Part shown: positions 1-37,476 of the stretch, piece by piece
How positions within the stretch are numbered: the first letter of the stretch is position 1
How the letters are laid out: the number at the start of each line of letters is the position of its first letter
Assembly (NCBI GenBank): GCA_050739575.1
Contig: JBOIBN010000003.1
Location: 608-64,607 of the forward strand
DNA from: Gammaproteobacteria bacterium
Lineage (GTDB): Bacteria > Pseudomonadota > Gammaproteobacteria > JAKDMP01
Length of the DNA: 64,000 bases
Direction of reading: 5' to 3'
Position numbers and translations under genes: made by a program
Notes under the pieces: model-generated
What the model was told of the DNA's origin: nothing
Databases searched by the model: none
Seen by the model: only the letters and a program-made list of their open reading frames with translations

Positions 1-1554
1 ATCAATACGGGAACGAATACGATTGCCCGTACCATCCAGAACCTGTCCGGTGCCGATGCGGTTGCGATCAGTTCGGACGGTACGCGCATTTATGTCTCCG
101 AATCCGCGAGCGGCAAGATAGCCGTGTTCGACGGAACGAAGATAAGCGATCCGAACCAGAATCCGCTGATCAAGGAACTCGACATCGGCGGCCAGCCGGT
201 CGGGCTTGCATTGTCGCCCGACAATAAGACACTTTATGTCGCCGACGCCCAGAACAATCAGGCCGAAGCCGTGGATCTCAATTCCGGTAAGATCGCCAAG
301 CAGTACGCCGCCGGATCGGGCGTGCGTGCGCTTGCCCTGTCGCCCGACGGACATCTTCTTGCGATCGGCGCCAACGACAAGACCGTGACGCTTTATACAT
401 TGCCCTGGCAGTCGGGCTTCAGCGCCGTCAAGGTCGTCGTCAGTCTGTCGGCCGCACCCAAGGCGCTCGCGTTCGATGCACAGGGCCAGACCTTGTGGAT
501 CGCGACGGCTACGGGCTTTTCGAGCTACGATCGCAACTCCGGCGCGGTGACCGATCACCCCGAAAGCGGCGGCACGACCTCGGTGGCTTATTCCCCGCGC
601 CTGAACCTGGTGTACACGGGGGCCGGTACCGGCAACCTCGTTTACACCTATGTTCCCGGCGCCGGTACCGTGGGACAGATCGGCACCTATAAGCCGGTCA
701 GAGGATTGGCGCTTTCGCCCGACGGCACGCGCCTCTACGCGGTCCAGAACTGCTCCAACTGCGGTGTTGCAGTCATCTCCACCGCGCAGGGGCAGGCGCT
801 TACCCAAGTCAGTTTCGGCACCGCACCCGTGACCGCGGGACAGTTTGTGGGACCGGGTCCGATATACGCAGCGTACGCAACCACGAACAGTTCGGTCGGC
901 GAGCAGATATCGGGTACCGTCACCGCGACCGACGGCAAGAATCGCAGCCTGACCTATTCGAACCTGATTGCGCCGACGCTCGGGCAACTGAGCTTCAACG
1001 CCACGGGCGACTTTGCCTACACGCCGCCCGCCGGCTACTCGGGTCTCCAGGCCTTCGTGTGGCAGGCCGCGGCCGGAAGTGGCGACGGCTCGCCGAACCT
1101 GCCTTATTCACGGCCGATCACCCAGTCGCTCGCCATTTCGCCTACGGTAAGCTCTTTTGACAGTCAGAGTGCCGACGGCGGCGCCACCATCGGTCCGCTC
1201 ACGTTCACGATTGCCGGCACCACGCCGCTCACCGTCACCGTAATCAGCAACAACAACGGCGTCGTCAATCCGGCCAAGGCCACCATCAGTTCCGGCTGCG
1301 GCACGGACAGCATGAATTGCAACCTGACGCTGGTGGCGGGCAAATCCTCCGGCCAGAGTGCAAGGGTCACGGTGCAGGTCAGCGATCCCAGCGGACTGGT
1401 GGCGAGTACCTATTTCAAGGTGACGATCAAGGGCGGCAGCAGTGGCGGCGGCGCCCTCGCGCCGTGGTCGCTCGCATTGCTCGCCGTGCTCGCCGTGCTC
1501 GCCGGGTTCGTCGCACTGCGGAAAAGACGCCATGGAAACCTTCGCGAGCGTTAA
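1..1554 (+). CDS. YVTN-family beta-propeller repeat protein with Ig-like C-terminal region and C-terminal Gly-rich/hydrophobic/RKRR anchor; 5' end outside window
   Basis: Frame 1 is open from base 1. Repeated 'LSPDxxxLYVA...V.V.D' ~40-aa units match the YVTN repeat. C-terminus [34 protein letters not shown]. Confidence 0.7.
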   Translation: MNTGTNTIARTIQNLSGADAVAISSDGTRIYVSESASGKIAVFDGTKISDPNQNPLIKELDIGGQPVGLALSPDNKTLYVADAQNNQAEAVDLNSGKIAKQYAAGSGVRALALSPDGHLLAIGANDKTVTLYTLPWQSGFSAVKVVVSLSAAPKALAFDAQGQTLWIATATGFSSYDRNSGAVTDHPESGGTTSVAYSPRLNLVYTGAGTGNLVYTYVPGAGTVGQIGTYKPVRGLALSPDGTRLYAVQNCSNCGVAVISTAQGQALTQVSFGTAPVTAGQFVGPGPIYAAYATTNSSVGEQISGTVTATDGKNRSLTYSNLIAPTLGQLSFNATGDFAYTPPAGYSGLQAFVWQAAAGSGDGSPNLPYSRPITQSLAISPTVSSFDSQSADGGATIGPLTFTIAGTTPLTVTVISNNNGVVNPAKATISSGCGTDSMNCNLTLVAGKSSGQSARVTVQVSDPSGLVASTYFKVTIKGGSSGGGALAPWSLALLAVLAVLAGFVALRKRRHGNLRER

Positions 1555-2908
1555 TCCCGCGAGTGGCGAAACGATCGAGCGTTACGCACTCAGCTCCCCG
1601 GCCGAAACAGATGCAGCGCTCGCCCGCGCCGTCAAGGCCCAGTGGGACTGGGCCGAGCGACCGCTCTCCGAACGACTTGCGAAACTTTCATGCTTCGCCG
1701 ATCTCTTCGGGAAAAAGCAGGACGAACTCGCACGCCTGATGACGCGCGAAATGGGGAAACCCATCGCGCAAGCGCGAGCCGAAGCCGCCAAATGCGCGCT
1801 CGCCTTCCGCTATTACTGCGAGCATGCGCCGCGCCTTCTCGCCGACGAGCCGGTGGCAACCGATGCGGGTAAAAGCGCGATCGTCTATCAGCCGCTCGGC
1901 GTCGTATTCGCGATCATGCCGTGGAACTTCCCGTTCTGGCAGGTTGCGCGCTTTGCCGCGCCGGCGCTCGCCGCCGGCAACGCGGGCGTCTTGAAGCATG
2001 CGCCGAACACCACCGGTTGCGGGCTCGCCTTCGCCGCGCTCGCAAAGGAAGCCGACATTCCCGACGGCGTCTTCCAGACGTTGGTGCTGGACAACGACCA
2101 AGCCGCACGCGTGATCGCCGATTCGCGCATTGCCGCGGTCACGCTCACCGGCAGCGAACGCGCCGGGCGCGCGGTGGCAAAGACCGCGGGCGAGCATCTC
2201 AAGAAGTGCGTGCTCGAACTCGGCGGCTCGGATCCCTTCGTCGTGCTCGCCGACGCCGATCTCGAGCGTGCCGTCGAGGTTGGCGTCACGGCGCGCTTCC
2301 AGAATAACGGCCAGAGTTGCATCGCGGCCAAGCGCTTCATCGTCGAAGCGCCGCTCTACGACGAATTCTGCCAGCGTTTCCGCGCGCGCGTTGCAGTCCT
2401 CGAGGTCGGCGATCCGGCGGACGAGGCGAACGACATCGGTCCGCTCGCTCGCGACGATCTCCGCACGACACTCGCCGAACAGGTGCAGGCGAGCACGAAG
2501 GCAGGCGCGCGCGTACTCACGGGCGGCGAATCCGTCGCCGGAGCCGGTTTCTTTTACGCCCCGACCGTGCTCGCCGACGTCACCCGCGGCATGACGGCCG
2601 CCGAAGAAGAAGTCTTCGGACCGGTCGCGGCCGTGCTCCGCGCTGACGACGAAGCCGACGCGCTCGCGCTCGCCAATGCGACGCCCTACGGACTCGGCGG
2701 CAGCGTGTGGACATGCGATCTCGCCCGCGGCGAACGCTTCGCGCGCGCGCTTGCGAGCGGTTCGGCCTTCGTCAACGGCATGGTGAAAAGCGATCCGCGC
2801 CTGCCCTTCGGCGGAGTCAAACACTCTGGCTACGGGCGCGAACTCGCCGAAGCGGGATTGCGCGAATTCCTCAATATAAAAACACTATGGATTGCCGCCG
2901 ATTCCTGA
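1532..2908 (+). CDS. NAD(P)+-dependent aldehyde dehydrogenase (succinate-semialdehyde dehydrogenase-like)
   Basis: [13 protein letters not shown]... start at ATG 1532. Full-length ALDH-family similarity ([17 protein letters not shown], catalytic Cys region [12 protein letters not shown]). The upstream ORF extension is out of context. Confidence 0.85.
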
Positions 2909-3011
2909 CCGCATAGTCGATGATGGCGCAATGCCTTCGATTTCCACGCTGGATAAGGGAATTAACGTGACTCCCCCTCAACCCTAATACAGAGGCTTGA
3001 CAATTCTCTGA

Positions 3012-3020
3012 GGGGGGGGG
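3012..3020. repeat. G9 homopolymer immediately 5' of a TATAAG -10-like hexamer, 84 bp upstream of lipoprotein start
   Basis: Direct read: ctctga-ggggggggg-tataagaacg. Confidence 0.9.
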
Positions 3021-3103
3021 TATAAGAACGCTGGGACCACCGTAATGCCGGCCGCATATTTGGTGGGTCGGCATATCTATAGCTCAAGAGAGCGGAGGTT
3101 TTT

Positions 3104-3724
3104 ATGTCGATCAAAATGTTACTGCCAATGAATTTAGGAGACGGAGGCACAAAGAAGCGGATACGGATTAGGATGGGGGTGCTTTTTTTAGCTGGGCTGC
3201 CAATCGTGGCATTAGTAGGTTGTACCTGCGGAGTGGGCGTCAGTCAAAAACAAGGGCTGTATGCAGGATGTTGGACAGATGTCGACCCCCCAGCTAACAC
3301 TCTAGGATCACTCGATACAACCCAAGCAATCGGTGGCCTAACCACCCAAAATGGAACCGTTGAAAATACCTCAGGAACATTTACGGTTACTGTATCCGAT
3401 ACAACGACTTCGGAAGTACTGGGTGAGACACAATTCGCGTATTACATCAGCAACAATTCTATATATGCTCAGGACCCGACTTTGGTACATACGTGGTTGG
3501 AAGGATTCTCTCAATACGGTAACGAGGATGTCACAGTTCACGTCGAGGCGGACGATATCGCGTTCCAACCCACAATAGAACAAGGAACGGCCACACTAAC
3601 TTTTGCTGCCAAATACCAGGGACTTACATACGGTTTGGCAACACTTCAGGAAGAAATAAACCCGCCGCGCTGCAAACCCCCAGCCGTAAATTGTCAACCC
3701 AAGCGACCGGGAGCTTCAGATTAA
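3104..3724 (+). CDS. hypothetical lipoprotein (lipobox LVGC) in low-GC islet
   Basis: GGAGG RBS 7 nt upstream of ATG 3104. Signal peptide with LVGC lipobox. Thr/Ser-rich mature part. Local GC ~45-50% versus ~67% in flanks. Confidence 0.55.
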   Translation: MSIKMLLPMNLGDGGTKKRIRIRMGVLFLAGLPIVALVGCTCGVGVSQKQGLYAGCWTDVDPPANTLGSLDTTQAIGGLTTQNGTVENTSGTFTVTVSDTTTSEVLGETQFAYYISNNSIYAQDPTLVHTWLEGFSQYGNEDVTVHVEADDIAFQPTIEQGTATLTFAAKYQGLTYGLATLQEEINPPRCKPPAVNCQPKRPGASD

Positions 3725-3751
3725 ACATGTAAATCATTTTTTAATTCCCAG

Positions 3752-3787
3752 GGCCAACGGCCTAACGGCCGTTGGCCTGATTTTTCT
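3752..3787 (+). terminator. rho-independent terminator (ggccaacggcc-taac-ggccgttggcc + T-run)
   Basis: Perfect 11-bp inverted repeat followed by tgatttttctt, 28 bp after the lipoprotein stop. Confidence 0.65.
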
Positions 3788-3911
3788 TATCTTAACGGGG
3801 TGTGTCAGTAGCTCTTATATTGCACGACAAATAGTCAGCCCAAGCCGACAGCAACGGTTCACAGAATCCACGCAGATTGTTGCTGAACCGTTTTATTCGC
3901 ATCGCTTTTCA

Positions 3912-4922
3912 TTGCCGGTCCATGCACCGGATGGTGGAACGATCAATGCGGCCATAATTGAGCCCGCTCTTTATGATCCGGAAATCAAGGTTTGGTATAA
4001 GGAAAATCAGTCGCAGGTTAAAACTAATCTTAATTTCCCCAAACTTCCAGCCCCGCCTGAGACCTCAGCTTTCAAACAGCTTGCCAAAAACAAACCTTTT
4101 GCAACCTACGCGGGAAGATTGAGTGGTTGGCTCGCAACCGTAAAGATAGACATGCCAATCGGCACCGTAATCATGTTGCCAGGTTTTGATATGAACCGAG
4201 CCAGTCTAATGCCTTGGGCACTCTTTTTCGCCGACCGTGGCTGGCGCGTTGTCTTGGTGGACTTGCGTGGACAGGGTACATCCAGTTCTCCTTACCTCAC
4301 GTGGGGAATTAAGGATCGGGATGATCTAAGTCGTCTTGTAGAGTTACTTGAAGCTCAACACATCTTGGTCCATCCGTGGATCTACTTCGGCGTTTCATAT
4401 GGTGCTGGTGTTGCGCTGATGGCGGCGGGAGACCGAGGGCATCCAGATGGTGTGATTGCTATTGCACCTTGGGAAACAGCTTCGGGCGTCATCCCGCGGT
4501 TTGCTCATAGCGTGGCTGGCGGATTGGCTCCCGGAAGCGCTTCTCCAAAGTGGGTGTCGGCAGAACAACAAGCAGGTCGTATCGCCGGGATCAATTTACA
4601 AGAGGCTCGCCCTATAGATTCAGTCGCATCTATCCCCATTCCTGTACTTTATTTAGGAGGAAGCGCAGATAGTGTCGCTCCTCCGGAAAATATCGAAATG
4701 ATGGCTCAAAAGACTCGCGAGGCAACAGTTGCGATAAAGAAGGGGTTAGCCCATATCGTTGTTGTGGCAGATGTGCCGGGTTTTTGTAGTTCGATCAACG
4801 ACTGGCTTAGCGCGACATTGCTAAAAAATCCTGTTCGTAAATGTTTTGTCAGTAAAAGCGTTAAAAACGGTCTGATTGAGGAAACTTACATTGGTGACAA
4901 GCTCAGCTCAGAATCGAATTAA
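3912..4922 (+). CDS. alpha/beta-hydrolase fold serine hydrolase (GVSYG nucleophile elbow)
   Basis: GxSxG motif 'GVSYGAG' and an alpha/beta hydrolase pattern (HG-like 'MLPGFD', LRGQG). Low-GC. The TTG start at 3912 is uncertain. Confidence 0.55.
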   Translation: MPVHAPDGGTINAAIIEPALYDPEIKVWYKENQSQVKTNLNFPKLPAPPETSAFKQLAKNKPFATYAGRLSGWLATVKIDMPIGTVIMLPGFDMNRASLMPWALFFADRGWRVVLVDLRGQGTSSSPYLTWGIKDRDDLSRLVELLEAQHILVHPWIYFGVSYGAGVALMAAGDRGHPDGVIAIAPWETASGVIPRFAHSVAGGLAPGSASPKWVSAEQQAGRIAGINLQEARPIDSVASIPIPVLYLGGSADSVAPPENIEMMAQKTREATVAIKKGLAHIVVVADVPGFCSSINDWLSATLLKNPVRKCFVSKSVKNGLIEETYIGDKLSSESN

Positions 4923-4966
4923 TGTAATACATCCGCTATCCGAAAAATATACAGTGCTCGCAGAGG

Positions 4967-5959
4967 TCAGTGCTCGGTTTTCATGGCGCGGCGCATCAGC
5001 GTCTCCACCGCCGCGCGCGGCGTGTGGATTCCGTCGAGCACGGCACGCACTTCTTCGCTGATTGGCATTTCGACTTCGAGTTCGCGCGCGAGCTTGGTGA
5101 GCGCGCGCGCGGCGGGAATCCCTTCGACGGCGGCGTCGATGGAGCTTTGCGCTTCGGCTACGCTTGCGCCGCGACCGAGCGCGAGTCCGAAGCGACGATT
5201 GCGTGACTGATCGTCGGTCGCGGTGAGCACCAGATCGCCGAGCCCCGCAAGACCGGTGAGTGTGCGGGGGAGGGCGCCGAGCGCCTTGCCCAGGCGCATG
5301 ATTTCGGCCAATCCACGGGTGATGAGTCCGGCGCGAGCATTGGCGCCAAAGCCGAGTCCGTCGCTGATGCCGGCGGCAATTGCAATCACGTTTTTGGCTG
5401 CGCCGCCGAGTTCGACGCCGACGAGATCGGTGCTGACGTAGGCGCGAAAGGTCGGTCCGTGCAGCAGACCGGCGAAACGTTCCGCAAGCCCGGCGTCGGT
5501 GGCCGCTACGGTGACCGCCGTCGGCAGTCCGCGGGCGACTTCAGCGGCGAAGCTGGGTCCGGACACGATGCCGAGTCCGCGCTTGGGACCGAGAATTGTT
5601 TGCGCGCGTTCGTGCAGCGGTCGGCCGTTCGCCGGGTCCAGTCCCTTGGTGGCCCAGAAGACCGGCGCCGCGCAGACCGGGGCGAGCGCGGCGAGTGTGT
5701 CCGCAAAGGCGTGGCTGGGCACGGCGACCAGCACCTGATCGGCACCATCGAGTGCCGCCGCGAAATCGCTTTCGGGTGTCAGTGTGGCTGGAAATTGCGC
5801 GCCCGGCAGGTAGCGATTATTTTCGCGCGCGGCCGCGAGCGTCGCCATGTGTTCGCGCCGATGTCCCCACAGGCGTACGGCATGACCGCTGCGGGAGATC
5901 TGGATGGCGAGCGCGCTGCCCCAGGCGCCGGCGCCGAGCACGGCGATCCTGGATTGCAC
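4967..5959 (-). CDS. gpsA: NAD(P)H-dependent glycerol-3-phosphate dehydrogenase
   Basis: RIAVLGAGAWGSALA Rossmann N-terminus plus GpsA-wide similarity (GLAEIMRLG, NRRFG). A GTG at 5957-5959 sits 4 nt after the secB stop. The alternative ATG at 6016 would overlap secB by 50 bp. Confidence 0.85.
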   Translation of the reverse strand: MQSRIAVLGAGAWGSALAIQISRSGHAVRLWGHRREHMATLAAARENNRYLPGAQFPATLTPESDFAAALDGADQVLVAVPSHAFADTLAALAPVCAAPVFWATKGLDPANGRPLHERAQTILGPKRGLGIVSGPSFAAEVARGLPTAVTVAATDAGLAERFAGLLHGPTFRAYVSTDLVGVELGGAAKNVIAIAAGISDGLGFGANARAGLITRGLAEIMRLGKALGALPRTLTGLAGLGDLVLTATDDQSRNRRFGLALGRGASVAEAQSSIDAAVEGIPAARALTKLARELEVEMPISEEVRAVLDGIHTPRAAVETLMRRAMKTEH

Positions 5960-5963
5960 GGTA

Positions 5964-6455
5964 CTAGCCGTCCAGCGGCCGTCCCTGCTGCGTTGCGTGC
6001 TGCTGATAAACCGCATCGAAGTCGATCGGTTGCAGCATGACGGGCAGGAAACCGCCGCGAACCACCAGATCGGAGACGGCCTGGCGTGCGTAGGGGAATA
6101 GCGCCTCGGGGGCGCGCGCGCCGAGCACCCGGCCCTGTTCGCTTTCCGGTACGTTGCCCAGCGTGACCACCGCGGCCATATGCACCTCGCAGACGAACAG
6201 GCTGCGTTCTCCGCTGCGCGCCTCGACGCTGATGCTCAGTATCACCTCGCGGGCTTCCGGGCGGTTGGCAAACCCATTGACCTGAGTCTGGAGGTTGATG
6301 CTTGCATCCGGCGGGGCGATCTGTTCGTTGAAGACCTCCGGCGACAGCGGAGATTCGAACGAGCAATCCTTCAAGTAGATGTGTTCGAAGGTGAATTGTC
6401 CCGCGCCCGGCGAGGCGAGCGGCGCACCGGCGATTGATTCGAGCGTATCGGCCAT
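5964..6455 (-). CDS. secB: protein-export chaperone SecB
   Basis: 163 aa with full SecB similarity (FEHIYLKDCSFESP...LFVCEVHMAAVV). Conserved secB-gpsA adjacency. Confidence 0.9.
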   Translation of the reverse strand: MADTLESIAGAPLASPGAGQFTFEHIYLKDCSFESPLSPEVFNEQIAPPDASINLQTQVNGFANRPEAREVILSISVEARSGERSLFVCEVHMAAVVTLGNVPESEQGRVLGARAPEALFPYARQAVSDLVVRGGFLPVMLQPIDFDAVYQQHATQQGRPLDG

Positions 6456-6561
6456 GGTTTTAGGTACCTGTGTTGAAATTTAGGAAACTGTAAATGTCAT
6501 GCCATTCGGGAGATTTTTTCGAGCCGAAAAACCGGGAAGCTCTGCGTTAACCGGAGGTTCC

Positions 6562-7056
6562 TTACTTCGCCTGTTCGAGCGGCAGATTTTCCTTGCGCCA
6601 AGTTGCAAGGCCACCCTTGAGCACGAACACGGACTCGAAACCGGCACGGCGCAGTACGTTCGCGGCGCGGCCGGCGTCGCGGGGGGTCGCGCCGACCGCG
6701 AGAACGGGCTTTCCGTGCTTGCGCTTGAGTTCCTCCGCCTGCTTGGCGAGATCACCAAGGGGAAAGTTGCGGGCGCCGACGATGTGTCCGCCGCGGTATT
6801 CGTCGTTTGCGCGACAGTCTACGACCAGTGCCCCGCGGTTGACGAGCAGGACGGCAGCTGCAGGAGTCAGTTCGCGCACGCCCTTTACACGGCGGTAGAT
6901 TTCATCGACGATAAGCAGTATCAGCACTACGACAAGTGCTGCCACCAATTGCCAATGTCGAGCGGCGAAATCCAAGTATTCTTGCACGTGGTTCGGATGA
7001 CAGGCGACAATTTGATAGTTTAGCCCACCGCTGCAGGCATGGTCCGCATGCGACAC
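6562..7056 (-). CDS. rhodanese-domain membrane protein (YibN-like)
   Basis: N-terminal TM helix and a rhodanese domain (VVDCRANDEYRGGHIVGARNFP). yibN-(grxC)-secB-gpsA synteny, with grxC absent. Confidence 0.65.
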   Translation of the reverse strand: MSHADHACSGGLNYQIVACHPNHVQEYLDFAARHWQLVAALVVVLILLIVDEIYRRVKGVRELTPAAAVLLVNRGALVVDCRANDEYRGGHIVGARNFPLGDLAKQAEELKRKHGKPVLAVGATPRDAGRAANVLRRAGFESVFVLKGGLATWRKENLPLEQAK

Positions 7057-7084
7057 TAGCCCGGGCTGTAAGGATTTCGTCTCG

Positions 7085-7981
7085 ATGAACCCGTTTCACG
7101 GCCGCGCGGGCGCCTTTGCCGCGCTCGGTCTGCTCGCCCTGATCTGGGGCTACAACTGGGTCGCGATGAAGGTCGCGCTCGAGTATGTGCCGCCGTTTCC
7201 CTTTGCCGCCCTGCGCGGAATCGGAGGGGGAATCGTTCTGCTGCTGTTGCTCGCGCTTCTGCGTAAACCGCTGCGCGTACGCACGCCGGGATGGATGGTC
7301 CTCCTCGCACTCACCCAGACCACCGGCTTTGCCGCCCTCACCAGCCTCGCGCTCGCCACCGGCAGTGCGGGCAAGGCGGCCATCCTGACTTACACCATGC
7401 CGTTCTGGGTTCTGGTGCTTGCGGCACCGCTCCTCGGCGAACAGATCACGCCCGGGCGGGCGATTGCGGGCGGACTAGGATTAATCGGTGTGGTTCTGAT
7501 TTTCGCGCCCTGGACGGCGCGCCCGGTCTACCTGAGTTCGCTCTATGCCGTGGGCGCGGGAATAAGCTGGGCGGCGGCGGTAGTCATCGCGAAGAAGACG
7601 CCCGTACACGGTATCTGGGAATTGCTAAACCTTAACGGGTGGCAGTCGCTCGTCGGCGGCGTGCCGCTCGCAGTGGCGGCAGTGCTGATGCCCTCGCCGC
7701 CGATTCACTGGACCTTGAGCTTCGATCTAGTGCTCGCCTACAACATCGTGCTCGCCACCAGCCTCGCCTGGTTTCTGTGGTTGTTCGTGCTTTCGCGCCT
7801 GTCGGCGGGTCTTTCGGGTCTCGCTTCGCTCGCGGTGCCGGTGATCGGCATCGTGGCGGCGTGGTTCCAACTCGGCGAACGGCCGACGCCCTGGGAAGGC
7901 GCCGGCGCGTTGGTGGTGATTGCCGGCCTGGCCGCGCTGGCCTGGAACAGAAGCCCTAGGAACCGCCTTGGGAAAGCTTGA
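7085..7981 (+). CDS. DMT-superfamily (EamA) transporter
   Basis: 10-TM hydrophobic profile with two EamA-like halves. Confidence 0.7.
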   Translation: MNPFHGRAGAFAALGLLALIWGYNWVAMKVALEYVPPFPFAALRGIGGGIVLLLLLALLRKPLRVRTPGWMVLLALTQTTGFAALTSLALATGSAGKAAILTYTMPFWVLVLAAPLLGEQITPGRAIAGGLGLIGVVLIFAPWTARPVYLSSLYAVGAGISWAAAVVIAKKTPVHGIWELLNLNGWQSLVGGVPLAVAAVLMPSPPIHWTLSFDLVLAYNIVLATSLAWFLWLFVLSRLSAGLSGLASLAVPVIGIVAAWFQLGERPTPWEGAGALVVIAGLAALAWNRSPRNRLGKA

Positions 7982-8783
7982 GCAGCGCGCCATTGGCGGC
8001 CGTCACCCCTGGCGCCGAGCAGACGTCATCAGGGTTGCCGCCGTCGAGCCGGCAGATCGCCGCGGTGAGGGCATTTACCTGCGGCATCGCTTGCTGGAAC
8101 AATGCGCTTTGTGGATCGGCGAAGGCTTTCGCAGCGGTATCCCAGTCCTTGCCCGTGAGATCTCCCGGCAGCAGCATCGGGCGATTAAGGACATATTGTC
8201 CGTCGAGATAGATGAACGGGATGGACCCGAACACTGGAGTGTAGGGTGGGGCGTCGTACGTGCTGTAAATTTTGTTTTGCTCATCCGTCGGCTTCATCAG
8301 CACCTTGCCGTTGCGGTCCTCGGTTTCTACCGGCTGGAAGACGAGATGATCGCTGGTGTATGTCGCGTGCAGGAAGGAGAATGTCGGCGTATTCGGATAG
8401 GCGTCCTGCGACGAGGAGAGCATGTAGTCAACCCCTTCGAGCTTGCCGAAGCGCACCAGCGTCAGTATCAGAGCCCAGCGCTGGCCCGCGCAGTAGGGGC
8501 AGAAATCCGCGCCCATGTAGAGCAAACCAACCTTGTCGCCGGTGCCGAGACGGGGGCCGTCTATGGCTTTGAGGTCCACCGGCTCGGGTACGACGGAAAG
8601 TCGGAGCCCCGCCTTGCTCGCTTGCTCGAGAGTGGTAATGAGGCTCGCAGGCACCGGCTTGTTGAGTTTCGCGGCGAGAGCGGGCGAGGTATTGTCTTGG
8701 GCGGAACCTAATACGCCGGCGGCGAACGCCGGGCTCGCAAATCCAGCGAGTACAAGAGCGAACAGTTTCAGGGGGCGGGGCAT
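7956..8783 (-). CDS. DUF929 thioredoxin-like secreted protein
   Basis: Signal peptide MPRPLKLFALVLAGFASPAFA. A CPYC motif (FCPYCAGQRWAL) lies in a DUF929-type context. Confidence 0.6.
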   Translation of the reverse strand: MPRPLKLFALVLAGFASPAFAAGVLGSAQDNTSPALAAKLNKPVPASLITTLEQASKAGLRLSVVPEPVDLKAIDGPRLGTGDKVGLLYMGADFCPYCAGQRWALILTLVRFGKLEGVDYMLSSSQDAYPNTPTFSFLHATYTSDHLVFQPVETEDRNGKVLMKPTDEQNKIYSTYDAPPYTPVFGSIPFIYLDGQYVLNRPMLLPGDLTGKDWDTAAKAFADPQSALFQQAMPQVNALTAAICRLDGGNPDDVCSAPGVTAANGALLKLSQGGS

Positions 8784-11564: not shown

Positions 11565-12620
11565 TCAGGTGAAGTGGATTTTCGCCTCGAGGTTGGCGCG
11601 TGAATCGGCGTTGGCGAGGGCCTCGTCGAGTGAAATGCGGCCCTCGCGATACAGAGCCAAAAGGGCCTGATCGAAACTTTGCATCCCAGGCTCGCCCGAA
11701 TCTTCCATGGCCGCCTTGATTTCGCGCAGGCGGCTCTCCCGGATGAGATCCGCAATGAAGGGTGTGTTCAGCATCACCTCGACGGCGGGGAGCAATTTGC
11801 CGTCCAAGCCGGTGAGGAGACGCTGCGAGATCACCGCGCGCAGATTGGCGCTCAAGTCGAGCAGAATCTCATGCTGCATGAGTTCTGGGAACATGCTCAG
11901 GATCCGGTCCAGCGTCTGCGCCGCATTCGTCGTGTGCAGGGTGGAAAGCCCGAAGTGTCCCGTGTTGGCAAGCGTGATCACGGCGCCCATCGTCGCGCGA
12001 TCGTGAATTTCGCCCACCATCACCACGTCGGGTGCGGCGCGCAGCGCGCTGCGCAGGGCGAGAGGATAGGAAGGCGTATCGGTGAACAGCTCGCGCTGGT
12101 TGACGATCGAACGCCGATGCGCGTGGGTAAATTCGATCGGATCTTCGATCGTGATGATGTGATCGGCGCGTTCGCGGTTGCGCTTGTCGAGCATCGCGGC
12201 GAGCGTGGTGGATTTGCCGGCGCCGCTCGCGCCGACCATGAGTATCAGACCGCGCGGCGACATCGCAAGTTCGCCCAGAATCGGAGGCAGGTTCAGCGTC
12301 TCCAGCGCAGGGATTTCCGCCGGGATATAGCGGATCGTGAGCGACGTCATGCCGCGCTGGCGGAAAACATTGAAACGGAAGCGGCCGTTCTCCGGATCTT
12401 CGAATCCGAAATCAACTTGTAGTTGTTCGCGAAAGCGTTGCCGCTGGTTTTCGTTCATCAGGCCGGTCGCGGCAACTTCGATGTCATGGTCCGAGGGCGT
12501 CTCCTCTCCGACGGAGAGCATTTGTCCCTCGACCCGGAGTTTGAGGCGTGCATTCGCCGTCAAGTAAAGATCTGAGGCCGAGCGCTCGCGCATGAGCTGG
12601 AGATACGGTTTCAATTGCAT
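11565..12620 (-). CDS. PilT/PilU-family type IV pilus retraction ATPase (third paralog)
   Basis: Walker A GASGAGKST. PilT signature region AHRRSIVNQRE plus His-box GHFGLSTLHT. Confidence 0.8.
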   Translation of the reverse strand: MQLKPYLQLMRERSASDLYLTANARLKLRVEGQMLSVGEETPSDHDIEVAATGLMNENQRQRFREQLQVDFGFEDPENGRFRFNVFRQRGMTSLTIRYIPAEIPALETLNLPPILGELAMSPRGLILMVGASGAGKSTTLAAMLDKRNRERADHIITIEDPIEFTHAHRRSIVNQRELFTDTPSYPLALRSALRAAPDVVMVGEIHDRATMGAVITLANTGHFGLSTLHTTNAAQTLDRILSMFPELMQHEILLDLSANLRAVISQRLLTGLDGKLLPAVEVMLNTPFIADLIRESRLREIKAAMEDSGEPGMQSFDQALLALYREGRISLDEALANADSRANLEAKIHFT

Positions 12621-12707
12621 GTGTGACTCCCGCGGAGGTGACGGACGCAGGCTGCCCACAGGCGGCGCGCAACCAGCGGCGCCCGCTGCACCCCCACTTC
12701 CCGCCTG

Positions 12708-13868
12708 TCAGCTGAGGCGCCGGCCATGGTCGGCGTCATCGAGCGTCATGCTGTCCAGTCCCTCGTCGAAGCGGTGATCCTCGCGTTTGCTCTCGAGCTT
12801 GATGCGCAGCCGGAGTTCGTTCTGGGAATCGGCATTGCGTATGGCCTCTTCGTAGACCACGGCGCCGGATTCGTAGAGATTGAAAATGGATTGATCGAAG
12901 GTCTGCATCCCGGCGCGCGGGGACTTCGCCATGACTTCCTTCAGCCCCGCCACGTCGCCCTTGAAGATCATGTCGGCGACGAGCGGTGTATTGATAAGTA
13001 CCTCGACGGCGGGCAGGCGGCCCTCGCCGCCCGCCTTGCGCATCAGCCGCTGGGATATGACTGCCTTCAGATTGAACGAAAGGTCCATCAGCAACTGTTG
13101 GCGCCGCTCTTGCGTGTAGAGATTGATGATGCGGTCGAGCGCCTGATTGGCGTTGGTGGCGTGCAGCGTGGCGAGGCACAAGTGGCCGGTTTCGGCGAAA
13201 ATCACCGCCTGCTCCATGGTTTCGCGGTCGCGGATCTCGCCGATCTGGACGACGTCAGGCGCCTGGCGCAGCACGTTCTTGAGCGCGGTGTGCCATTCGG
13301 TCGTATCCACGCCGACTTCGCGCTGGGTCACGACGCAACCCGCGTGTTCGTGCACGTATTCGATCGGATCCTCGATGGTCACGATGTGGCCGTGCGAATT
13401 GCGATTGCGATGGCCGATCAAGGCGGCGAGCGTGGCCGTCTTGCCGGCTCCGGTCGCGCCGACCACGATCACGAGGCCGCGTGGGGTCAGCGCGATGTCC
13501 TTCAGCGCCGGCGGCAGGTTGAGTTCTTCGACGGTCGGGATCGTAGGGCTGATGGTGCGCAGCACCGCACCCTGGCGTCCGCGCTGCACGAAGGCGCTCA
13601 CCCGGAACCGGCCGATCCCCTCCGGGCTGATCGCGAAGTTGCATTCCTTGGTGGCGTCGAACTCGCGATTTTGCCGGTCGTTCATGATTGCGCGCACGAG
13701 GACTGCGCTCTGTTCGCCGCTAAGCGGGCTTTCGGTAAGGGGTCGCACCTGACCGTCCACCCGGATCGCCGGCGGAAACCCGGCGGTGATGATGAGATCC
13801 GAGGCGCCGTGGGTAAGCATGGAGCGCAGCAAATCCTGCATGAACCCTGCGGCCTGTTCGAGTTCCAT
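12708..13868 (-). CDS. pilU: type IV pilus ATPase PilU with ~45-aa acidic C-terminal extension
   Basis: Walker A GATGAGKT. HEHAGCVVTQREV and GHLCLATLHATNA motifs. Position between pilT and a third paralog. Confidence 0.8.
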   Translation of the reverse strand: MELEQAAGFMQDLLRSMLTHGASDLIITAGFPPAIRVDGQVRPLTESPLSGEQSAVLVRAIMNDRQNREFDATKECNFAISPEGIGRFRVSAFVQRGRQGAVLRTISPTIPTVEELNLPPALKDIALTPRGLVIVVGATGAGKTATLAALIGHRNRNSHGHIVTIEDPIEYVHEHAGCVVTQREVGVDTTEWHTALKNVLRQAPDVVQIGEIRDRETMEQAVIFAETGHLCLATLHATNANQALDRIINLYTQERRQQLLMDLSFNLKAVISQRLMRKAGGEGRLPAVEVLINTPLVADMIFKGDVAGLKEVMAKSPRAGMQTFDQSIFNLYESGAVVYEEAIRNADSQNELRLRIKLESKREDHRFDEGLDSMTLDDADHGRRLS

Positions 13869-13894
13869 CGGCGCTCCCGGGCCCTGGGCCGCGG

Positions 13895-14938
13895 TCACAG
13901 GAAGTTGTCCTTGTTCTGGGCCTTGAGACGCGCGTCTTCGCGGTTGATAAGGCCGTGGCGCAGCAGTTCCTTGAGGGACTGATCCAGGGTCTGCATGCCG
14001 ACGCCCTGTCCGGTCTGGATCGTCGAGTAGAGCTGGGGAACCTTGCCTTCGCGGATGAGGTTGCGCACCGCCGGCGTACCGATCATGATTTCCCATGCGG
14101 CAATGCGTCCGCCGCCGTTCTTCTTCATCAGGGTCTGTGCGATCACCGCACGCAGCGACTCCGAGAGCATGCCGCGCACCATCTCCTTCTCGCCGGCGGG
14201 GAAGACGTCTACCACCCGGTCAATGGTCTTGGCGGCCGAGCTCGTATGCAGGGTGGCGAACACGAGATGGCCGGTTTCGGCCGCGGTCAAAGCGAGGCGG
14301 ATGGTTTCGAGATCGCGCATCTCGCCGACCAGGATCACGTCCGGGTCCTCGCGCAGTGCGCTGCGCAGGGCCTCGGCAAAACCGAGCGTGTCGCGGTGCA
14401 CCTCGCGCTGGTTGATCAGGCACTTCTTGGATTCGTGCACGAACTCGATCGGATCCTCGATCGTCACGATGTGCGCGTTCCAGTTTTCGTTGACGAAGTT
14501 CACCATCGCGGCGAGTGTCGTGGTCTTGCCGGAGCCGGTCGGTCCGGTCACCAGCACGATGCCGCGCGGCTGCATCGCGATATCCCGGAACACCGGCGGT
14601 GCTCCGACGTCCTCGAGCGTCACCACGCCCTGGGGGATGGTCCGGAATACCGCGCCGGGGCCGTTTTTCTGATTGAACGCATTCACCCGGAAGCGGGCGA
14701 GGCCCGGGATCTCGAAGGAAAAGTCGGTCTCCAGGAATTCTTCATAGTTCTTGCGTTGCCGGTCGCTCATGATGTCGTAGAGCATGTCGTGCACATCCTT
14801 GTGCTCGAGTACCGGCTCATTGATGCGGCGCATGTCCCCATCCACCCGGATCATGGGCGGCACCCCCGTCGACAGGTGCAGATCCGAGGCGTTGTGCCTC
14901 TTGCCGAAGGCCAGAAGCTGGGAAACGTCCAGTGCCAT
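13895..14938 (-). CDS. pilT: twitching-motility ATPase PilT
   Basis: 348 aa. GPTGSGKTTT Walker A, PilT motif AIVNFVNENWNAHIVTIEDPIEF, and GHLVFATLHTSSA His-box. Divergent from proC/yggT as in Pseudomonas. Confidence 0.88.
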   Translation of the reverse strand: MALDVSQLLAFGKRHNASDLHLSTGVPPMIRVDGDMRRINEPVLEHKDVHDMLYDIMSDRQRKNYEEFLETDFSFEIPGLARFRVNAFNQKNGPGAVFRTIPQGVVTLEDVGAPPVFRDIAMQPRGIVLVTGPTGSGKTTTLAAMVNFVNENWNAHIVTIEDPIEFVHESKKCLINQREVHRDTLGFAEALRSALREDPDVILVGEMRDLETIRLALTAAETGHLVFATLHTSSAAKTIDRVVDVFPAGEKEMVRGMLSESLRAVIAQTLMKKNGGGRIAAWEIMIGTPAVRNLIREGKVPQLYSTIQTGQGVGMQTLDQSLKELLRHGLINREDARLKAQNKDNFL

Positions 14939-15054
14939 TCGTCGCGCCCCCCCTTGATCTTTGCGCATCTTATAACGTGTTGGCCGCTTATGTGCAAGCC
15001 TTAGGCTCCCGGCGCGGTAGCGAGCCCTCGATCCGGTGCCTATAGAATGTCGGC

Positions 15055-15900
15055 TTGGCGGCAAAATACACGGGTGGTCGGGTGACGTACGGCGGCCGAG
15101 TTGCCTTTATCGGCGGCGGCAACATGGCGCAGAGTCTCGCGGGCGGACTGATCGCCGCGGGCTGGCCGGCACCGGCGCTCGCCATCGCCGACCCCGACCC
15201 CATGCAGCGCGATCGTCTCGCACGTTTCGCGCCGGCCGCGATCACGGCTGACAATGCGATGGCCGTGACCGGCGCGCAACTGGTCGTACTCGCGGTCAAG
15301 CCGCAAGCGGCGGCGCAGGCGCTTGCCGAGGTGGCCGAAGTATTGCGGCGCGAACGTCCGCTGCTGCTTTCCATCGCGGCGGGTTTGCGTCTTGCCGCCA
15401 TCGAGTCCGCCGTCGGAGCTGAACTCGCTGCCGTGCGGGCGATGCCGAACATGGCGGCGCTCGTCGGCCGCGGGGCGAGTGCCTTTTTTGCCAATGCGCG
15501 GGTGGACGCTGCCGGGCGGGCACTTGTACGCGAGGTATTGGAAGCCGTGGGCATGACGGTCGAGGTGGACGAGGAGACGCTGCTCGATGCGGTGACGGCG
15601 GTCTCGGGCAGCGGACCCGCGTATTTCTTTTTGTTGGTCGAGACCTTGGCCGAAGCGGGAGTGGCGGCGGGACTCAGGCGCGAGACTGCACTTACGCTTG
15701 CGAGCGCCACAGGCGCCGGTGCGATGGCGCTTCTCGCCACGAGCGGCGAGACGCCAGCTGCGCTGCGCAAGCGGGTGACTTCGCCCGGCGGCACCACAGC
15801 CGCTGCGCTCGGGGAATTTGACCGCGGTGATTTCGCAGGATTGGTGCAACGCGCGGTGTTGTGCGCCGCACAGCGGGCGCGCGAACTCGGCGGCGGTTAG
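15055..15900 (+). CDS. proC: pyrroline-5-carboxylate reductase
   Basis: VAFIGGGNMAQSL Rossmann motif and ProC C-terminal STGGTT-like PGGTTAAAL. The start (TTG 15055 versus GTG 15082) is uncertain. Confidence 0.85.
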   Translation: MAAKYTGGRVTYGGRVAFIGGGNMAQSLAGGLIAAGWPAPALAIADPDPMQRDRLARFAPAAITADNAMAVTGAQLVVLAVKPQAAAQALAEVAEVLRRERPLLLSIAAGLRLAAIESAVGAELAAVRAMPNMAALVGRGASAFFANARVDAAGRALVREVLEAVGMTVEVDEETLLDAVTAVSGSGPAYFFLLVETLAEAGVAAGLRRETALTLASATGAGAMALLATSGETPAALRKRVTSPGGTTAAALGEFDRGDFAGLVQRAVLCAAQRARELGGG

Positions 15901-29910: not shown

Positions 29911-30371
29911 TGCGCCTCTCGCGCCTTGGCCTGTGCCCGATGCAGCGCTTGGCGAACATCGTGCTTGAGTTTGTCCATGAGCGGCGGCGGAATCCGGAAA
30001 CCTTGCGGTTCATTGGGATTCAGGCGAATGCCGGCACCCTCCGGAACCTGCAGCAGCGCCCAGGAACTGGCGGTCTCGAAGGGGGCGAATTGCCCGTCCT
30101 GAACATTTTCACGGCAGAACTTCTCGGCGCGTGCGGGGCGACTGAAAAGCGCCAGCATGGGTTGCTCCTGATTGCTGCCGTCGGAAACGATCAGCAGTTT
30201 GCGGCCGACCGGAGGAGGGACGTCGACTTCTTCCCACGGCGGACTCACGGCGACAGTTACATGCTCGGTTGCGAGCGCGATGAAGAAGTCGCTGTACCAT
30301 TGCGGGTCTTCGGCATAGCTGTTCAGCAATTGTTCCAAGCGGTTGGGCGGCGTCTCGTCGTCGGGGGTCAT
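29907..30371 (-). CDS. hypothetical 154-aa protein embedded between sulfotransferase paralogs
   Basis: ORF with ATGA overlap onto the downstream sulfotransferase start. No recognisable catalytic motif. Acidic N-terminus. Confidence 0.5.
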   Translation of the reverse strand: MTPDDETPPNRLEQLLNSYAEDPQWYSDFFIALATEHVTVAVSPPWEEVDVPPPVGRKLLIVSDGSNQEQPMLALFSRPARAEKFCRENVQDGQFAPFETASSWALLQVPEGAGIRLNPNEPQGFRIPPPLMDKLKHDVRQALHRAQAKAREAQ

Positions 30372-30461
30372 CCGTTGTAATCGGTTGGATCGTGAGAGCG
30401 ACTTATTATAGTTGGATCAACCGGTTTCGCGGCCGCTGACTGCGGGCGGATCACTTATCCA

Positions 30462-32234: not shown

Positions 32235-32237
32235 GCT

Positions 32238-37400: not shown

Positions 37401-37476
37401 AAACAGCTTCTTCCCGTCGGGCGGATACCGGATACCCGGCCGCTTCTTCTACGGACGTGTGACCGTCAACTTCTAA
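34468..37476 (+). CDS. large (1002 aa) TonB-dependent outer-membrane receptor
   Basis: Signal peptide. Plug-domain motifs (IVVTGS, DRIEVL...GSEAMAGVINIITI). C-terminal beta-barrel terminating ...FFYGRVTVNF. Confidence 0.85.
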   Translation: MSTETLLRQAVKGALALGSAGTMIGAGAALAQTAAPAAGTKLSNIVVTGSHIPQTSIATAQPVITINRQEIDNSGYTSVGQLLQSLSAAGPALNTQFNNGGNGSVFFDLHNLGSQRVLVLVNGQRWLPTLGGSVDVSTIPTAIVDRIEVLMDGASAVYGSEAMAGVINIITIQNYNGAQAGVYTGIYDGKGDGGGWDGKVQEYYFTVGTSGDRSAVMLSASYRNANPVWAGQRTISKEPYAGTGNEFGSSGSPNGRFVFYDPNYASYGNPAACSKSAALGYPGCDFTGPINPTNPFQSAPFTQGFNYAPQNYLLTPQELYSIYSQGHYDLTDNITFNFTTTYQRRNSSQVLAPNPWFFGLAGTEFVNGHEIGVAANNPYNPFGKDLVPGFPSYGSGAYFCQNYGSPTCSTNYETLFFFGRRPNEVGNRVFTQNVSTFYFNGGFTGYWEMFGNEWNWNANYIYGNTLETDLTTGLASTTQIANALGTQCPTSPGCVPLNIFGGAGTITKPMANYVLFDAHDITSQTLRDYNANIGGSFFNGWYAGPWGAAAGYEYDEFDGFFQPDALIAAGNTVGNAVKPTNGREKTDAEYAELNIPLASNMPFARELGIDIANRWSQATWNGIGSVFQNGAIVNEPASGSASDSTGRVTFKWKPIDQLLFRGTWAAGFRIPAISDLFSGAADNYPSLVDPCAPGPFGGWNGIPADLPPGCNGMRHSQPNGQIHTTVGGNPALQPEKSISQSLGFVWSPDFVQGLDFSADYYKIVVVNQITRLGGQFYLNQCYYNSDQAACNKITVAGGTVRNVTDTEINAGSFHTNGWDVGLRYQLPTTPVGDFTVNLNMNFVKFLTLCSNSGECRNVAGTGSSFSGTAKHKYNLGVNWDYGPWAATWNVYLIGDLYEPCKNSVRWDAGNPTHAGNPWCSNVGPGAGYPTGEPTNHLGTTVYNDVQGSYTVSSWNTTFTLGIQNLFDKSPPIAATAFGNSFFPSGGYRIPGRFFYGRVTVNF

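What the first reader, a model, noticed from the sequence alone, without database searches (positions are those of the whole stretch)
2909..4966. Low-GC two-gene islet (lipoprotein + GxSxG hydrolase) inserted between the aldehyde dehydrogenase and gpsA, with a G9 tract in its promoter
GC drops from ~67% to ~45-50% over ~2 kb. The islet carries a Thr-rich lipoprotein with its own strong terminator and an alpha/beta-hydrolase with a GVSYG nucleophile. A 9-G homopolymer (3012-3020) sits directly 5' of a TATAAG hexamer. Poly-G tracts of this length are slipped-strand mispairing hotspots. They could phase-vary expression by altering -35/-10 spacing or a regulator site. A lipoprotein next to a lipase-like hydrolase is also the layout of T6SS Tle/Tli effector-immunity pairs, although no T6SS genes are in the window.
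Basis: partly seen in the sequence, partly recalled or inferred. Interest (0 to 1): 0.55.

Follow-up and report, generated by a model that had tools for sequence, protein, structure and literature searches.

The report
Poly-G-switched lipoprotein and hydrolase islet
A 2-kb foreign-looking insert in an uncultured gammaproteobacterium carries two envelope lipoprotein genes behind a promoter holding a run of nine Gs, and similar G-run promoters in several related gene cassettes suggest a random on/off switch of a kind known mainly from pathogens.

Summary
Window 2909-4966 is the lowest-GC 2 kb of the 64 kb (0.49 vs 0.63; GC3 0.44 vs 0.75-0.79). It carries a 206-aa lipoprotein gene and an alpha/beta-hydrolase gene (GVSYG Ser, Asp, His). 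A G9 run (3012-3020) lies inside TTGACA-N18-TATAAG.

Relatives have tauE at this site, so the cassette was acquired.

New points:
- The hydrolase family is itself lipoproteins (L-T-G-C lipobox).
- The "terminator" hairpin lies inside the hydrolase's signal-peptide coding region. It is kept by compensatory changes in 7 homologues.
- The window's hydrolase start codon is ATT, not ATG.
- The -35/poly-G/-10 layout recurs in three other lineages (G9, G10, G11/G12), a fourth has G8 before a -10-like hexamer, and one orthologue has an interrupted tract.

Best reading: a mobile cassette of two envelope lipoproteins expressed from a promoter whose spacer length is set by a slippage-prone G tract, as at porA or tp0126. 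Switching itself is not shown; assemblies give only G11 versus G12 in one lineage.

The T6SS Tle/Tli idea is not supported. The hydrolase carries a Sec/lipoprotein signal, no Tle family matches, no T6SS genes are nearby, and hydrolase homologues occur without the small lipoprotein.

This is a new member of a known kind, of moderate interest.

The parts
2909..4966 (.). Low-GC islet between the aldehyde dehydrogenase stop and the gpsA stop. It occupies the place held by tauE in relatives.
   Evidence: GC 0.489 vs 0.631 and GC3 0.44 vs 0.75-0.79. Relatives L053/L055/L057 have TauE next to gpsA. No TauE remnant in the window.
2997..3002 (+). -35 hexamer TTGACA (predicted)
   Evidence: Sequence. 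The composite TTGACA-N15-19-TATAA is unique in the window against 0.03 expected.
3012..3020 (+). G9 homopolymer forming the 3' half of the 18-bp promoter spacer; proposed slippage site
   Evidence: The same layout occurs in L009 (G9), L071 (G10) and the L001 lineage (G11/G12); L036 has G8 before a -10-like hexamer.
3021..3026 (+). -10-like hexamer TATAAG (predicted)
   Evidence: The consensus scan does not list it, because that scan requires T at position 6.
3094..3098 (+). Shine-Dalgarno GGAGG, 5 nt before the ORF1 ATG
   Evidence: Sequence
3104..3724 (+). ORF1: 206-aa lipoprotein (lipobox L-V-G-C, Cys codon 3221-3223). Predicted Ig-like beta-sandwich. Family has no Pfam model.
   Evidence: There are 84 family representatives among 1.84 billion proteins. 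AF2 model has core pLDDT 86-92. Foldseek hits to pilin/adhesin domains are weak.
3709..3713 (+). GGGAG, 6 nt before ATT 3720; possible Shine-Dalgarno for the hydrolase
   Evidence: Sequence. Homologues that start with ATG lack such a motif.
3720..4922 (+). ORF2: alpha/beta-hydrolase lipoprotein, 400 codons open. ATT at 3720 aligns with the ATG of the closest homologues and overlaps the ORF1 stop (ATTAA). Lipobox L-T-G-C, Cys codon 3801-3803. Ser226 at 4395-4397, Asp317 at 4668-4670, His345 at 4752-4754. The first canonical start is TTG 3912.
   Evidence: AF2 pLDDT 85. Fold matches are generic esterases and lipases. NCBI calls no gene here; Logan aa from TTG.
3751..3788 (+). 12-bp GC-rich hairpin plus T-run, inside the signal-peptide coding region of ORF2. 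It looks like a terminator or attenuator.
   Evidence: z = -5.2. Covariation in 7 homologues: 85.7% of cells paired, 8 of 14 pairs changed on both sides, 0 of 500 shuffles as good.

Best explanation
The region is a horizontally acquired two-gene cassette. It replaced tauE between the aldehyde dehydrogenase gene and gpsA.

The cassette encodes two Sec/Lol-exported envelope lipoproteins. One is a small Thr-rich beta-sandwich protein of an uncharacterised family. The other is a Ser-Asp-His alpha/beta hydrolase of an uncharacterised subfamily.

Both genes are probably transcribed from one sigma-70-type promoter, TTGACA-N18-TATAAG, whose spacer ends in a G9 run. The proposed mechanism is slipped-strand mispairing at the G run during replication. 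This would add or remove Gs and change the spacer to 17, 18 or 19 bp. Individual cells would then switch heritably and reversibly between higher and lower expression of the cassette. This is the mechanism known from porA of Neisseria meningitidis and tp0126 of Treponema pallidum.

A conserved hairpin with a T-run in the first 30 codons of the hydrolase gene probably lowers hydrolase expression relative to the small lipoprotein. So does an ATT start that overlaps the ORF1 stop codon.

Shown: composition, gene content, lipoboxes, catalytic triad, absence of the cassette from relatives, promoter geometry, recurrence of the poly-G promoter, covariation of the hairpin.

Inferred: promoter activity, slippage, the effect of slippage on expression, use of ATT as a start, and the biochemical role.
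For: Foreign origin:
- GC and GC3 are far below the flanks.
- Three relatives with 75-76% identical GpsA share the surrounding synteny but carry TauE at this site.
- Every cassette copy is 7-16 points lower in GC than its host DNA.
- Cassette contexts differ between lineages: S41 peptidase/SDR in one, IS3 transposase plus HigBA in another.

Lipoproteins:
- All 5 aligned ORF1 homologues have the L-x-G-C lipobox.
- Nearly all full-length hydrolase homologues have L-[TSA]-[GA]-C.
- The invariant Cys pair C356/C375 fits a periplasmic disulfide.

Switch:
- G9 lies in the spacer of a promoter match that is unique in the window.
- L009 has TTGACT-N9-G9-TAACGT, the same geometry, ahead of other low-GC exported-protein genes and the hydrolase gene.
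- L071, a distant ORF1 homologue, has TTGACA-N10-G10-CAGAAT.
- The L001 lineage has TTGACA-N4-G12 in 9 Logan assemblies and G11 in one ENA assembly. That gap is the only difference in six contigs and the only indel in all nine, across 2-3.3 kb.
- L035/L036 have G8-TAATAC.
- L037, 90% identical to L009, has the tract interrupted (AGGTGGGGG) with the same 18-bp spacer.
- TTGACW-N3-11-G8+ occurs nowhere else in the 77 loci.
- Only 14 G/C runs of 8 or more exist in 488 kb of non-redundant sequence; 5 of them are these promoter tracts.
- Mechanism precedent: tp0126 and porA spacer poly-G (PMC7864442).
- A second G-tract polymorphism in the family: the L014 hydrolase is out of frame at G8, where P0006 needs G7. 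The two clusters have 7 and 11 member sequences.
Against: - No direct evidence of length heterogeneity in the window's own lineage: all three assemblies show G9, and they may come from one population.
- The single G11 versus G12 difference could be an assembler or Illumina homopolymer artefact.
- The -10 hexamer lacks the conserved final T. The promoter scan did not list it, and no transcription start is mapped.
- In L001 and L071 the consensus spacer would be 19-20 bp. The L036 lineage shows no good -35.
- Three lineages of the ORF1 family (L005, L072-74, L075-77) have no poly-G, so the tract is not essential to the cassette.
- The hydrolase lacks a canonical start codon, so half of the cassette may be inactive here.
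Confidence: 0.6

Rival explanations
1. The G run is a fixed promoter element, such as a regulator binding site or a rigid or unusual DNA segment. It is conserved for that reason and does not change length at a useful rate. Expression would then be regulated conventionally.
For: G9 is identical in three assemblies of the window lineage. G12 is identical in nine Logan assemblies. The tract position next to the -10 is conserved.
Against: Tract length differs in every lineage. One orthologue replaces it with an interrupted run of the same length. This points to spacer length rather than G identity as the conserved quantity. G/C runs of 8-9 or more are known to slip at high rates in other bacteria (PMC7864442, PMC1891110). 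Consensus assemblies cannot show minority lengths.
Confidence: 0.2
2. The islet is a decaying remnant. The cassette was acquired but is being lost. The hydrolase has lost its start codon, the ORF1 stop has moved, and the G run is a leftover with no current role.
For: ATG has become ATT at 3720, aligned with the ATG-AAA of L059/L060. ORF1 runs 6 codons past the family's usual end. NCBI annotates no gene at 3725-4966. The hydrolase was absent from the protein database.
Against: The 400-codon frame is open. It keeps all 48 columns that are invariant in the 18-sequence family alignment, including Ser, Asp, His and both Cys. A GGGAG motif sits 6 nt before ATT, and the new ORF1 stop overlaps ATT (ATTAA). 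That layout suits translational coupling. ORF1 itself is intact with a strong SD.
Confidence: 0.15
3. It is a T6SS Tle-type lipase effector with its Tli lipoprotein immunity partner.
For: It has the GxSxG hydrolase next to a small lipoprotein. Known Tli proteins can be outer-membrane lipoproteins (PMC9860674).
Against: The hydrolase family has its own lipoprotein signal peptide, whereas T6SS effectors are not Sec substrates (established knowledge). There is no Pfam, NCBIfam or PADLOC hit to any Tle or other toxin family. The best structural matches are Pf2001 esterase, monoacylglycerol lipase and S9 peptidases. No VgrG, Hcp or PAAR gene appears in any of the cassette loci. None appears among the 26 window proteins scanned, including the two islet genes. 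Hydrolase homologues of 42-52% identity occur without ORF1. ORF1 homologues occur with other partners.
Confidence: 0.03

Closest known systems
Promoter-spacer poly-G phase variation: porA of Neisseria meningitidis and tp0126 (OmpW homologue) of Treponema pallidum
   Same: A G homopolymer lies between the -35 and -10 hexamers of a gene for an envelope protein. Spacing near 17 bp is optimal, and single-G changes alter transcription (PMC7864442). The window has TTGACA-N9-G9-TATAAG with an 18-bp spacer.
   Different: The host is an uncultured environmental gammaproteobacterium, not a host-restricted pathogen. The controlled genes are an uncharacterised lipoprotein and a lipoprotein hydrolase. Length variation and its effect are not demonstrated here.
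Poly-G tracts upstream of the T. pallidum tprE/G/J/L genes, and homopolymeric-tract variation in Bordetella pertussis (including the poly-C tracts of the fim promoters)
   Same: The homopolymer lies directly upstream of the core promoter or start site. Only some lengths permit transcription (PMC7864442, PMC1891110). The L036 and L001 lineages resemble this more than a clean spacer model.
   Different: Those systems also depend on activators (CRP homologue, BvgA). No regulator is known here.
Mycoplasma variable lipoproteins (Vlp) switched by a poly-A tract in the promoter spacer (from my own knowledge, not checked here)
   Same: Surface lipoprotein genes are individually switched by a homopolymer between -35 and -10.
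   Different: Vlp genes form multigene families with repetitive coding regions. Here there is a single cassette with a globular beta-sandwich protein and an enzyme.
T6SS Tle/Tli effector-immunity pairs
   Same: A GxSxG alpha/beta hydrolase lies next to a small lipoprotein gene.
   Different: The hydrolase is Sec/lipoprotein-exported. It has no Tle family signature, no T6SS genes are nearby, and the pairing is not obligate.

Membership tests
Homopolymer-in-promoter phase-variable locus (porA / tp0126 type) | Homopolymer of about 8 nt or more located between (or abutting) the -35 and -10 elements | tested here: met
   G9 at 3012-3020 lies inside TTGACA-N18-TATAAG. The promoter is predicted from sequence only.
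Homopolymer-in-promoter phase-variable locus (porA / tp0126 type) | Tract length varies within or between populations of one strain | tested here: inconclusive
   Window lineage: G9 in 3 of 3 assemblies. L001 lineage: G12 in 9 assemblies and G11 in 1, the only indel in 2-3.3 kb. Between lineages: G8 to G12, and one interrupted allele. Read-level data were not available.
Homopolymer-in-promoter phase-variable locus (porA / tp0126 type) | Expression changes with tract length | not testable with these tools
   Needs reporter fusions or transcript counts for each tract length.
Homopolymer-in-promoter phase-variable locus (porA / tp0126 type) | The controlled product is a surface or envelope component | tested here: met
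   Both products carry lipoboxes without Asp at +2. Localisation is inferred, not shown.
T6SS Tle/Tli effector-immunity pair | The effector belongs to a Tle1-5 family | tested here: not met
   Only generic alpha/beta-hydrolase models match. No Tle structure is among the top 50 PDB matches.
T6SS Tle/Tli effector-immunity pair | The effector lacks a Sec signal and is delivered by the T6SS | tested here: not met
   The hydrolase family has a lipoprotein signal peptide.
T6SS Tle/Tli effector-immunity pair | Genetic linkage to vgrG, hcp, PAAR or a T6SS cluster | tested here: not met
   None in the cassette loci. None among the 26 window proteins scanned, two of them the islet genes. Smaller window ORFs were not scanned.
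T6SS Tle/Tli effector-immunity pair | The immunity gene always accompanies the toxin gene | tested here: not met
   Hydrolase homologues in L008 and L011-L014 have no ORF1 homologue.
Bacterial lipoproteins (Lgt/LspA substrates) | N-terminal signal peptide ending in a lipobox [LVI][ASTVI][GAS]C | tested here: met
   ORF1 ...IVALVGC and ORF2 ...LILTGC, conserved in homologues. For ORF2 this requires initiation upstream of TTG 3912.
Alpha/beta-hydrolase fold serine hydrolases | Nucleophile elbow GxSxG plus Asp and His in the canonical order, and the alpha/beta fold | tested here: met
   S226, D317 and H345 are invariant in 18 sequences. Pfam Abhydrolase_1/Hydrolase_4 match. AF2 pLDDT is 85, with Foldseek E=1e-13 to esterases. 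The substrate is unknown.
Horizontally acquired genomic islet | Atypical composition, and absence from the same site in relatives | tested here: met
   No integrase, tRNA or flanking repeats were found, so the insertion mechanism is unknown.

The most novel reading that the evidence does not exclude
These cassettes may be a family of mobile contingency loci in uncultured, free-living gammaproteobacteria. Hits include Mizugakiibacter MAGs, unclassified gammaproteobacterial MAGs and a mine-drainage metagenome. In this reading a low-GC module of exported proteins (the ORF1-family lipoprotein, the lipoprotein hydrolase or other exported partners) travels together with a poly-G promoter switch. A structured hairpin embedded in the signal-peptide codons, together with a non-AUG coupled start, sets the ratio of the two products. 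Stochastic surface variation by simple-sequence slippage would then be a general strategy against phage or predators in environmental communities, not a speciality of host-adapted pathogens.
Probability: 0.3. Interest if true: 0.65.

Novelty: new member of a known kind. Interest (0 to 1): 0.5.

Why it matters
Homopolymer promoter switches are textbook devices of host-restricted pathogens such as Neisseria, Treponema, Bordetella and Mycoplasma. Here the same architecture is conserved across several lineages of uncultured environmental gammaproteobacteria. It sits on a compositionally foreign cassette that encodes two uncharacterised envelope protein families.

If switching is confirmed, it would give a concrete and testable case of contingency-locus biology in free-living bacteria. 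It would also mark the ORF1 lipoprotein and the hydrolase as probable surface-exposed targets of fluctuating selection by phage, predators or competitors.

There is also an annotation lesson. The hydrolase is missed or truncated by gene callers because it starts with ATT. A terminator-like hairpin is in fact a conserved structure inside a coding region.

Tried and rejected
- Tle/Tli pair: rejected (see rivals).
- Phage moron or defence system: no relatives of either protein in 2.9 million viral contigs. No PADLOC hit. Only generic esterase PHROGs matched.
- Known RNA element in the leader or at the hairpin: no Rfam match at E<=1 in 2800-5100. The leader fold is not significant (z = -1.7).
- Insertion signatures: no terminal direct or inverted repeats, tRNA or integrase at the borders.
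- TauE remnant inside the islet: none.
- Function of the hydrolase from solved structures: the best sequence match is only E=8e-6 and the fold matches are generic.
- The inverted repeat CTCCCCCTCA (2971-2980) / TGAGGGGGGG (3009-3018) around the -35: homologous promoters have no comparable C-run upstream, so it was not pursued.
- Small lipoprotein genes next to the hydrolase-only loci: none recognised, although those high-GC loci produce many spurious ORFs.
Full report
**1. Observation**

- GC drops from 0.66-0.71 in the flanks to 0.43-0.55 between about 2850 and 4950.
- The islet 2909-4966 has 0.489 GC against 0.631 for the window. It is the lowest of all 2,058-nt windows (mean 0.631, sd 0.025).
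- GC3 is 0.44 for both islet genes against 0.67-0.79 for six neighbouring genes.
- G9 lies at 3012-3020 and TATAAG at 3021-3026.
- G9 is the only G/C run of 8 or more in the 64 kb. A first-order model expects 0.02 runs of 9 or more in the islet.
The G run therefore forms the 3' half of an 18-bp spacer.
- TTGACA-N15-19-TATAA occurs once in the window against 0.03 expected.
- Two other assemblies carry the same junctions and the same G9 at 100% identity. One is a 2.6-kb contig that spans both borders. The islet is therefore not an assembly chimera.

**2. The genes**

ORF1 (3104-3724):
- It has a GGAGG 5 nt upstream of the ATG, a basic n-region and the lipobox L-V-G-C.
- The mature part is 15% Thr.
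- It has no Pfam or NCBIfam match.
- The word-indexed search found four homologue clusters at 57-58% identity.
- An exhaustive profile search found 84 cluster representatives. Fourteen of the fifteen sequences read (all but one long multi-repeat hit) are proteins of 170-282 aa with a lipobox-like Cys, and most have a C-terminal Cys pair.
- AF2 predicts a beta-sandwich with core pLDDT 86-92.
- PDB matches are weak and point to Ig-like pilin and adhesin domains.

ORF2:
- It is an alpha/beta hydrolase.
- Ser226 (GVSYG), Asp317, His345 and two Cys are invariant in 18 sequences.
- The AF2 model is confident (pLDDT 85).
- It resembles only generic esterases, monoacylglycerol lipase and S9 peptidase domains.

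**3. Corrections to the gene model**

The hydrolase homologues read in full nearly all begin with a lipoprotein signal peptide ending in L-[TSA]-[GA]-C. Two apparent N-terminal truncations and one His-for-Cys variant are the exceptions.
- In the window, that signal peptide is encoded in frame at 3720-3803. There is no ATG, GTG or TTG between the upstream stop and TTG 3912.
- The closest homologues (L059/L060) read ATG-AAA-TTT-TCA-AAC-TCC-TTT (MKFSNSF). The window reads ATT-AAA-CAT-GTA-AAT-CAT-TTT (IKHVNHF). The start codon has therefore become ATT.
- ORF1 runs six codons beyond the family's usual ...CQPK end. It stops at a TAA that overlaps the ATT (ATTAA).
- A GGGAG lies 6 nt upstream of the ATT.
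- NCBI calls no gene there. Logan calls a truncated 336-aa product. The protein was absent from the 5.8-billion-protein database.
- I read this as coupled initiation at a weak start, with recent inactivation as the alternative.

**4. The 'terminator'**

The 12-bp hairpin plus T-run at 3751-3788 is significant (z = -5.2). However, it encodes residues R-A-N-G-L-T-A-V-G-L of the signal peptide.
- Seven hydrolase genes keep a hairpin in the same register.
- 85.7% of cells are paired, against 27-54% when the partner strand is slid.
- 8 of 14 pairs change on both sides.
- 0 of 500 shuffles score as well.
- Two of the seven genes (L008, L014) have no ORF1 gene upstream and no T-run after the hairpin.
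- The hairpin is therefore a conserved feature of the hydrolase mRNA or DNA. In the lower-GC copies (window, L001) it also looks like an intrinsic terminator and may attenuate read-through from ORF1.
- Its primary role is unexplained.

**5. Origin**

Relatives with 75-76% identical GpsA share the surrounding genes: hopanoid genes, PNP_UDP, secB, rhodanese, EamA and DUF929. They have a 265-aa TauE gene convergent with gpsA where the window has the islet.
- One relative has aldDH-tauE-gpsA.
- No TauE remnant remains in the window.
- The stretch between gpsA and the hopanoid genes differs in all four genomes, so it is a variable zone.
- Each cassette copy found elsewhere is also lower in GC than its host DNA: 0.50/0.63, 0.42/0.55, 0.51/0.58, 0.45/0.61 and 0.54/0.68.
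- Each sits in a different context, once beside an IS3 transposase and HigBA.
- No integrase, tRNA or border repeats were found.

**6. The poly-G promoter recurs**

| Locus | Promoter layout |
|---|---|
| Window | TTGACA-N9-G9-TATAAG |
| L009 (Mizugakiibacter MAG) | TTGACT-N9-G9-TAACGT, ahead of two unrelated low-GC exported-protein genes and then the hydrolase |
| L037 (90% identical to L009) | Same 18-bp spacer, tract interrupted (AGGTGGGGG) |
| L071 (distant ORF1 homologue with a different lipoprotein partner) | TTGACA-N10-G10-CAGAAT |
| L001 lineage (57% identical cassette) | TTGACA-N4-G12-CGAG-TACGCT in nine Logan assemblies, G11 in one ENA assembly |
| L035/L036 | G8-TAATAC just before the annotated start |

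- In the L001 lineage the tract gap is the only indel in all nine comparisons with the ENA contig over 2-3.3 kb. Six of the nine have no mismatch at all.
- The composite TTGACW-N3-11-G8+ is found nowhere else in the 77 fetched loci.
- Only 14 G/C runs of 8 or more occur in 488 kb of non-redundant sequence. Five of them are these promoter tracts.
- Three lineages (L005, L072-74, L075-77) lack the tract.

Two features argue that the tract sets spacer length and is evolutionarily labile. The position stays fixed while the length varies. One orthologue has an interrupted, 'locked' tract. Both are typical of slippage-driven switches such as porA and tp0126 (PMC7864442).

A further hint comes from L014. 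Its hydrolase is frameshifted at a G8 where the otherwise identical P0006 needs G7. The two forms come from clusters of 7 and 11 member sequences.

**7. Limits**

- No read-level data could be examined.
- The window lineage shows only G9.
- G11 versus G12 could be technical.
- The -10 lacks the final T, and the transcription start is unmapped.
- Consensus spacers in L001 and L071 would be 19-20 bp, which may represent 'off' states or a different -10.
- Phase variation is therefore the best-supported mechanism but remains inferred (confidence about 0.6).

**8. Tle/Tli**

This idea is rejected on five counts.
- The hydrolase is Sec/lipoprotein-exported.
- No Tle family, defence or toxin model matches.
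- No T6SS gene occurs in any cassette locus.
- No T6SS gene occurs among the 26 window proteins scanned.
- The pairing is not obligate. Hydrolase-only loci and ORF1 homologues with other partners both exist.

The pair does recur in at least six lineages. A distant ORF1 homologue also lies 1.6 kb from a distant hydrolase homologue, with two further exported-protein genes between them (L023). A functional link of some kind is therefore likely.

**9. Verdict**

The islet is real and was acquired. Its promoter has the anatomy of a homopolymer phase-variation switch, with good comparative support. It is a new member of a known kind, in an unusual ecological setting, controlling two uncharacterised envelope protein families. 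Interest is moderate (0.5). The embedded, covarying hairpin and the ATT start are the least expected details.

Noticed in passing
window 3751-3788; L001 3595-3626; L036 4000-4031; L008 6000-6031; L014 6000-6031; L059 342-373; L060 700-731: A hairpin inside the signal-peptide coding region of the hydrolase genes is kept by compensatory changes: 8 of 14 pairs change on both sides and 0 of 500 shuffles score as well. It is present even where no upstream lipoprotein gene and no T-run exist. Its function is unknown.
   Followed up: partly
window 3700-3730: The hydrolase start codon is ATT where the closest homologues have ATG. The ORF1 stop has moved six codons downstream and overlaps the ATT (ATTAA). 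GGGAG lies 6 nt upstream. NCBI annotates no gene at 3725-4966.
   Followed up: partly
L014 6773-6780 (and L008 6761-6768): A G8 run lies inside the hydrolase coding region. The L014 copy (P0019, cluster of 7 member sequences) is frameshifted there, while the otherwise identical P0006 (cluster of 11 member sequences) needs G7. This may be a second, coding-region G-tract switch in the same family, or a recurrent sequencing error.
   Followed up: partly
L037 798-842 vs L009 233-262: These are orthologous promoters at 90% identity. L009 has a pure G9. L037 has AGGTGGGGG with the same 18-bp spacer, which looks like a 'locked' allele.
   Followed up: partly
L009 180-1852: Behind the G9 promoter lie two other low-GC genes for exported proteins, one of 270 aa and one of 162 aa with an N-terminal TM helix. 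They are followed by a strong terminator hairpin and the hydrolase gene. The first gene's signal peptide appears split by a stop at an AAA run (about 449-560).
   Followed up: no
L023 103-3427: A distant ORF1-family lipoprotein, an OMP-like beta-barrel protein, a secreted 168-aa protein and a distant hydrolase homologue form one low-GC cluster (0.54 vs 0.68).
   Followed up: no
window 1-8000 vs L053, L055, L057: The stretch between gpsA and the hopanoid (SQS/SHC/PNP_UDP) genes differs in all four relatives. TauE is present in all three relatives. The aldehyde dehydrogenase and the beta-propeller protein are present or absent. This looks like a local plasticity zone.
   Followed up: partly
L005 1295-2451 and 4832-5470; L008 7300-8840; L011 3633-5311; L013 5015-6633: Cassette and hydrolase-only loci often lie beside mobile or toxin-antitoxin-like genes. 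IS3 and HigBA were identified by Pfam. The PIN/VapB-like and AbiEi/Eii-like genes were judged by eye only.
   Followed up: no
window 2971-2980 and 3009-3018: The inverted repeat CTCCCCCTCA / TGAGGGGGGG brackets the -35 hexamer. The right arm is part of the G run. Homologous promoters show no comparable C-run upstream.
   Followed up: partly
window 28177-34073: Three tandem paralogous genes encode TPR plus sulfotransferase (Sulfotransfer_3) proteins. They lie next to a TonB-dependent receptor gene (34468-37476).
   Followed up: no
window 11565-15064: Three adjacent T2SSE-family ATPase genes (PilT/PilU-like). A C7 run at 14947-14953 lies inside the third gene.
   Followed up: no
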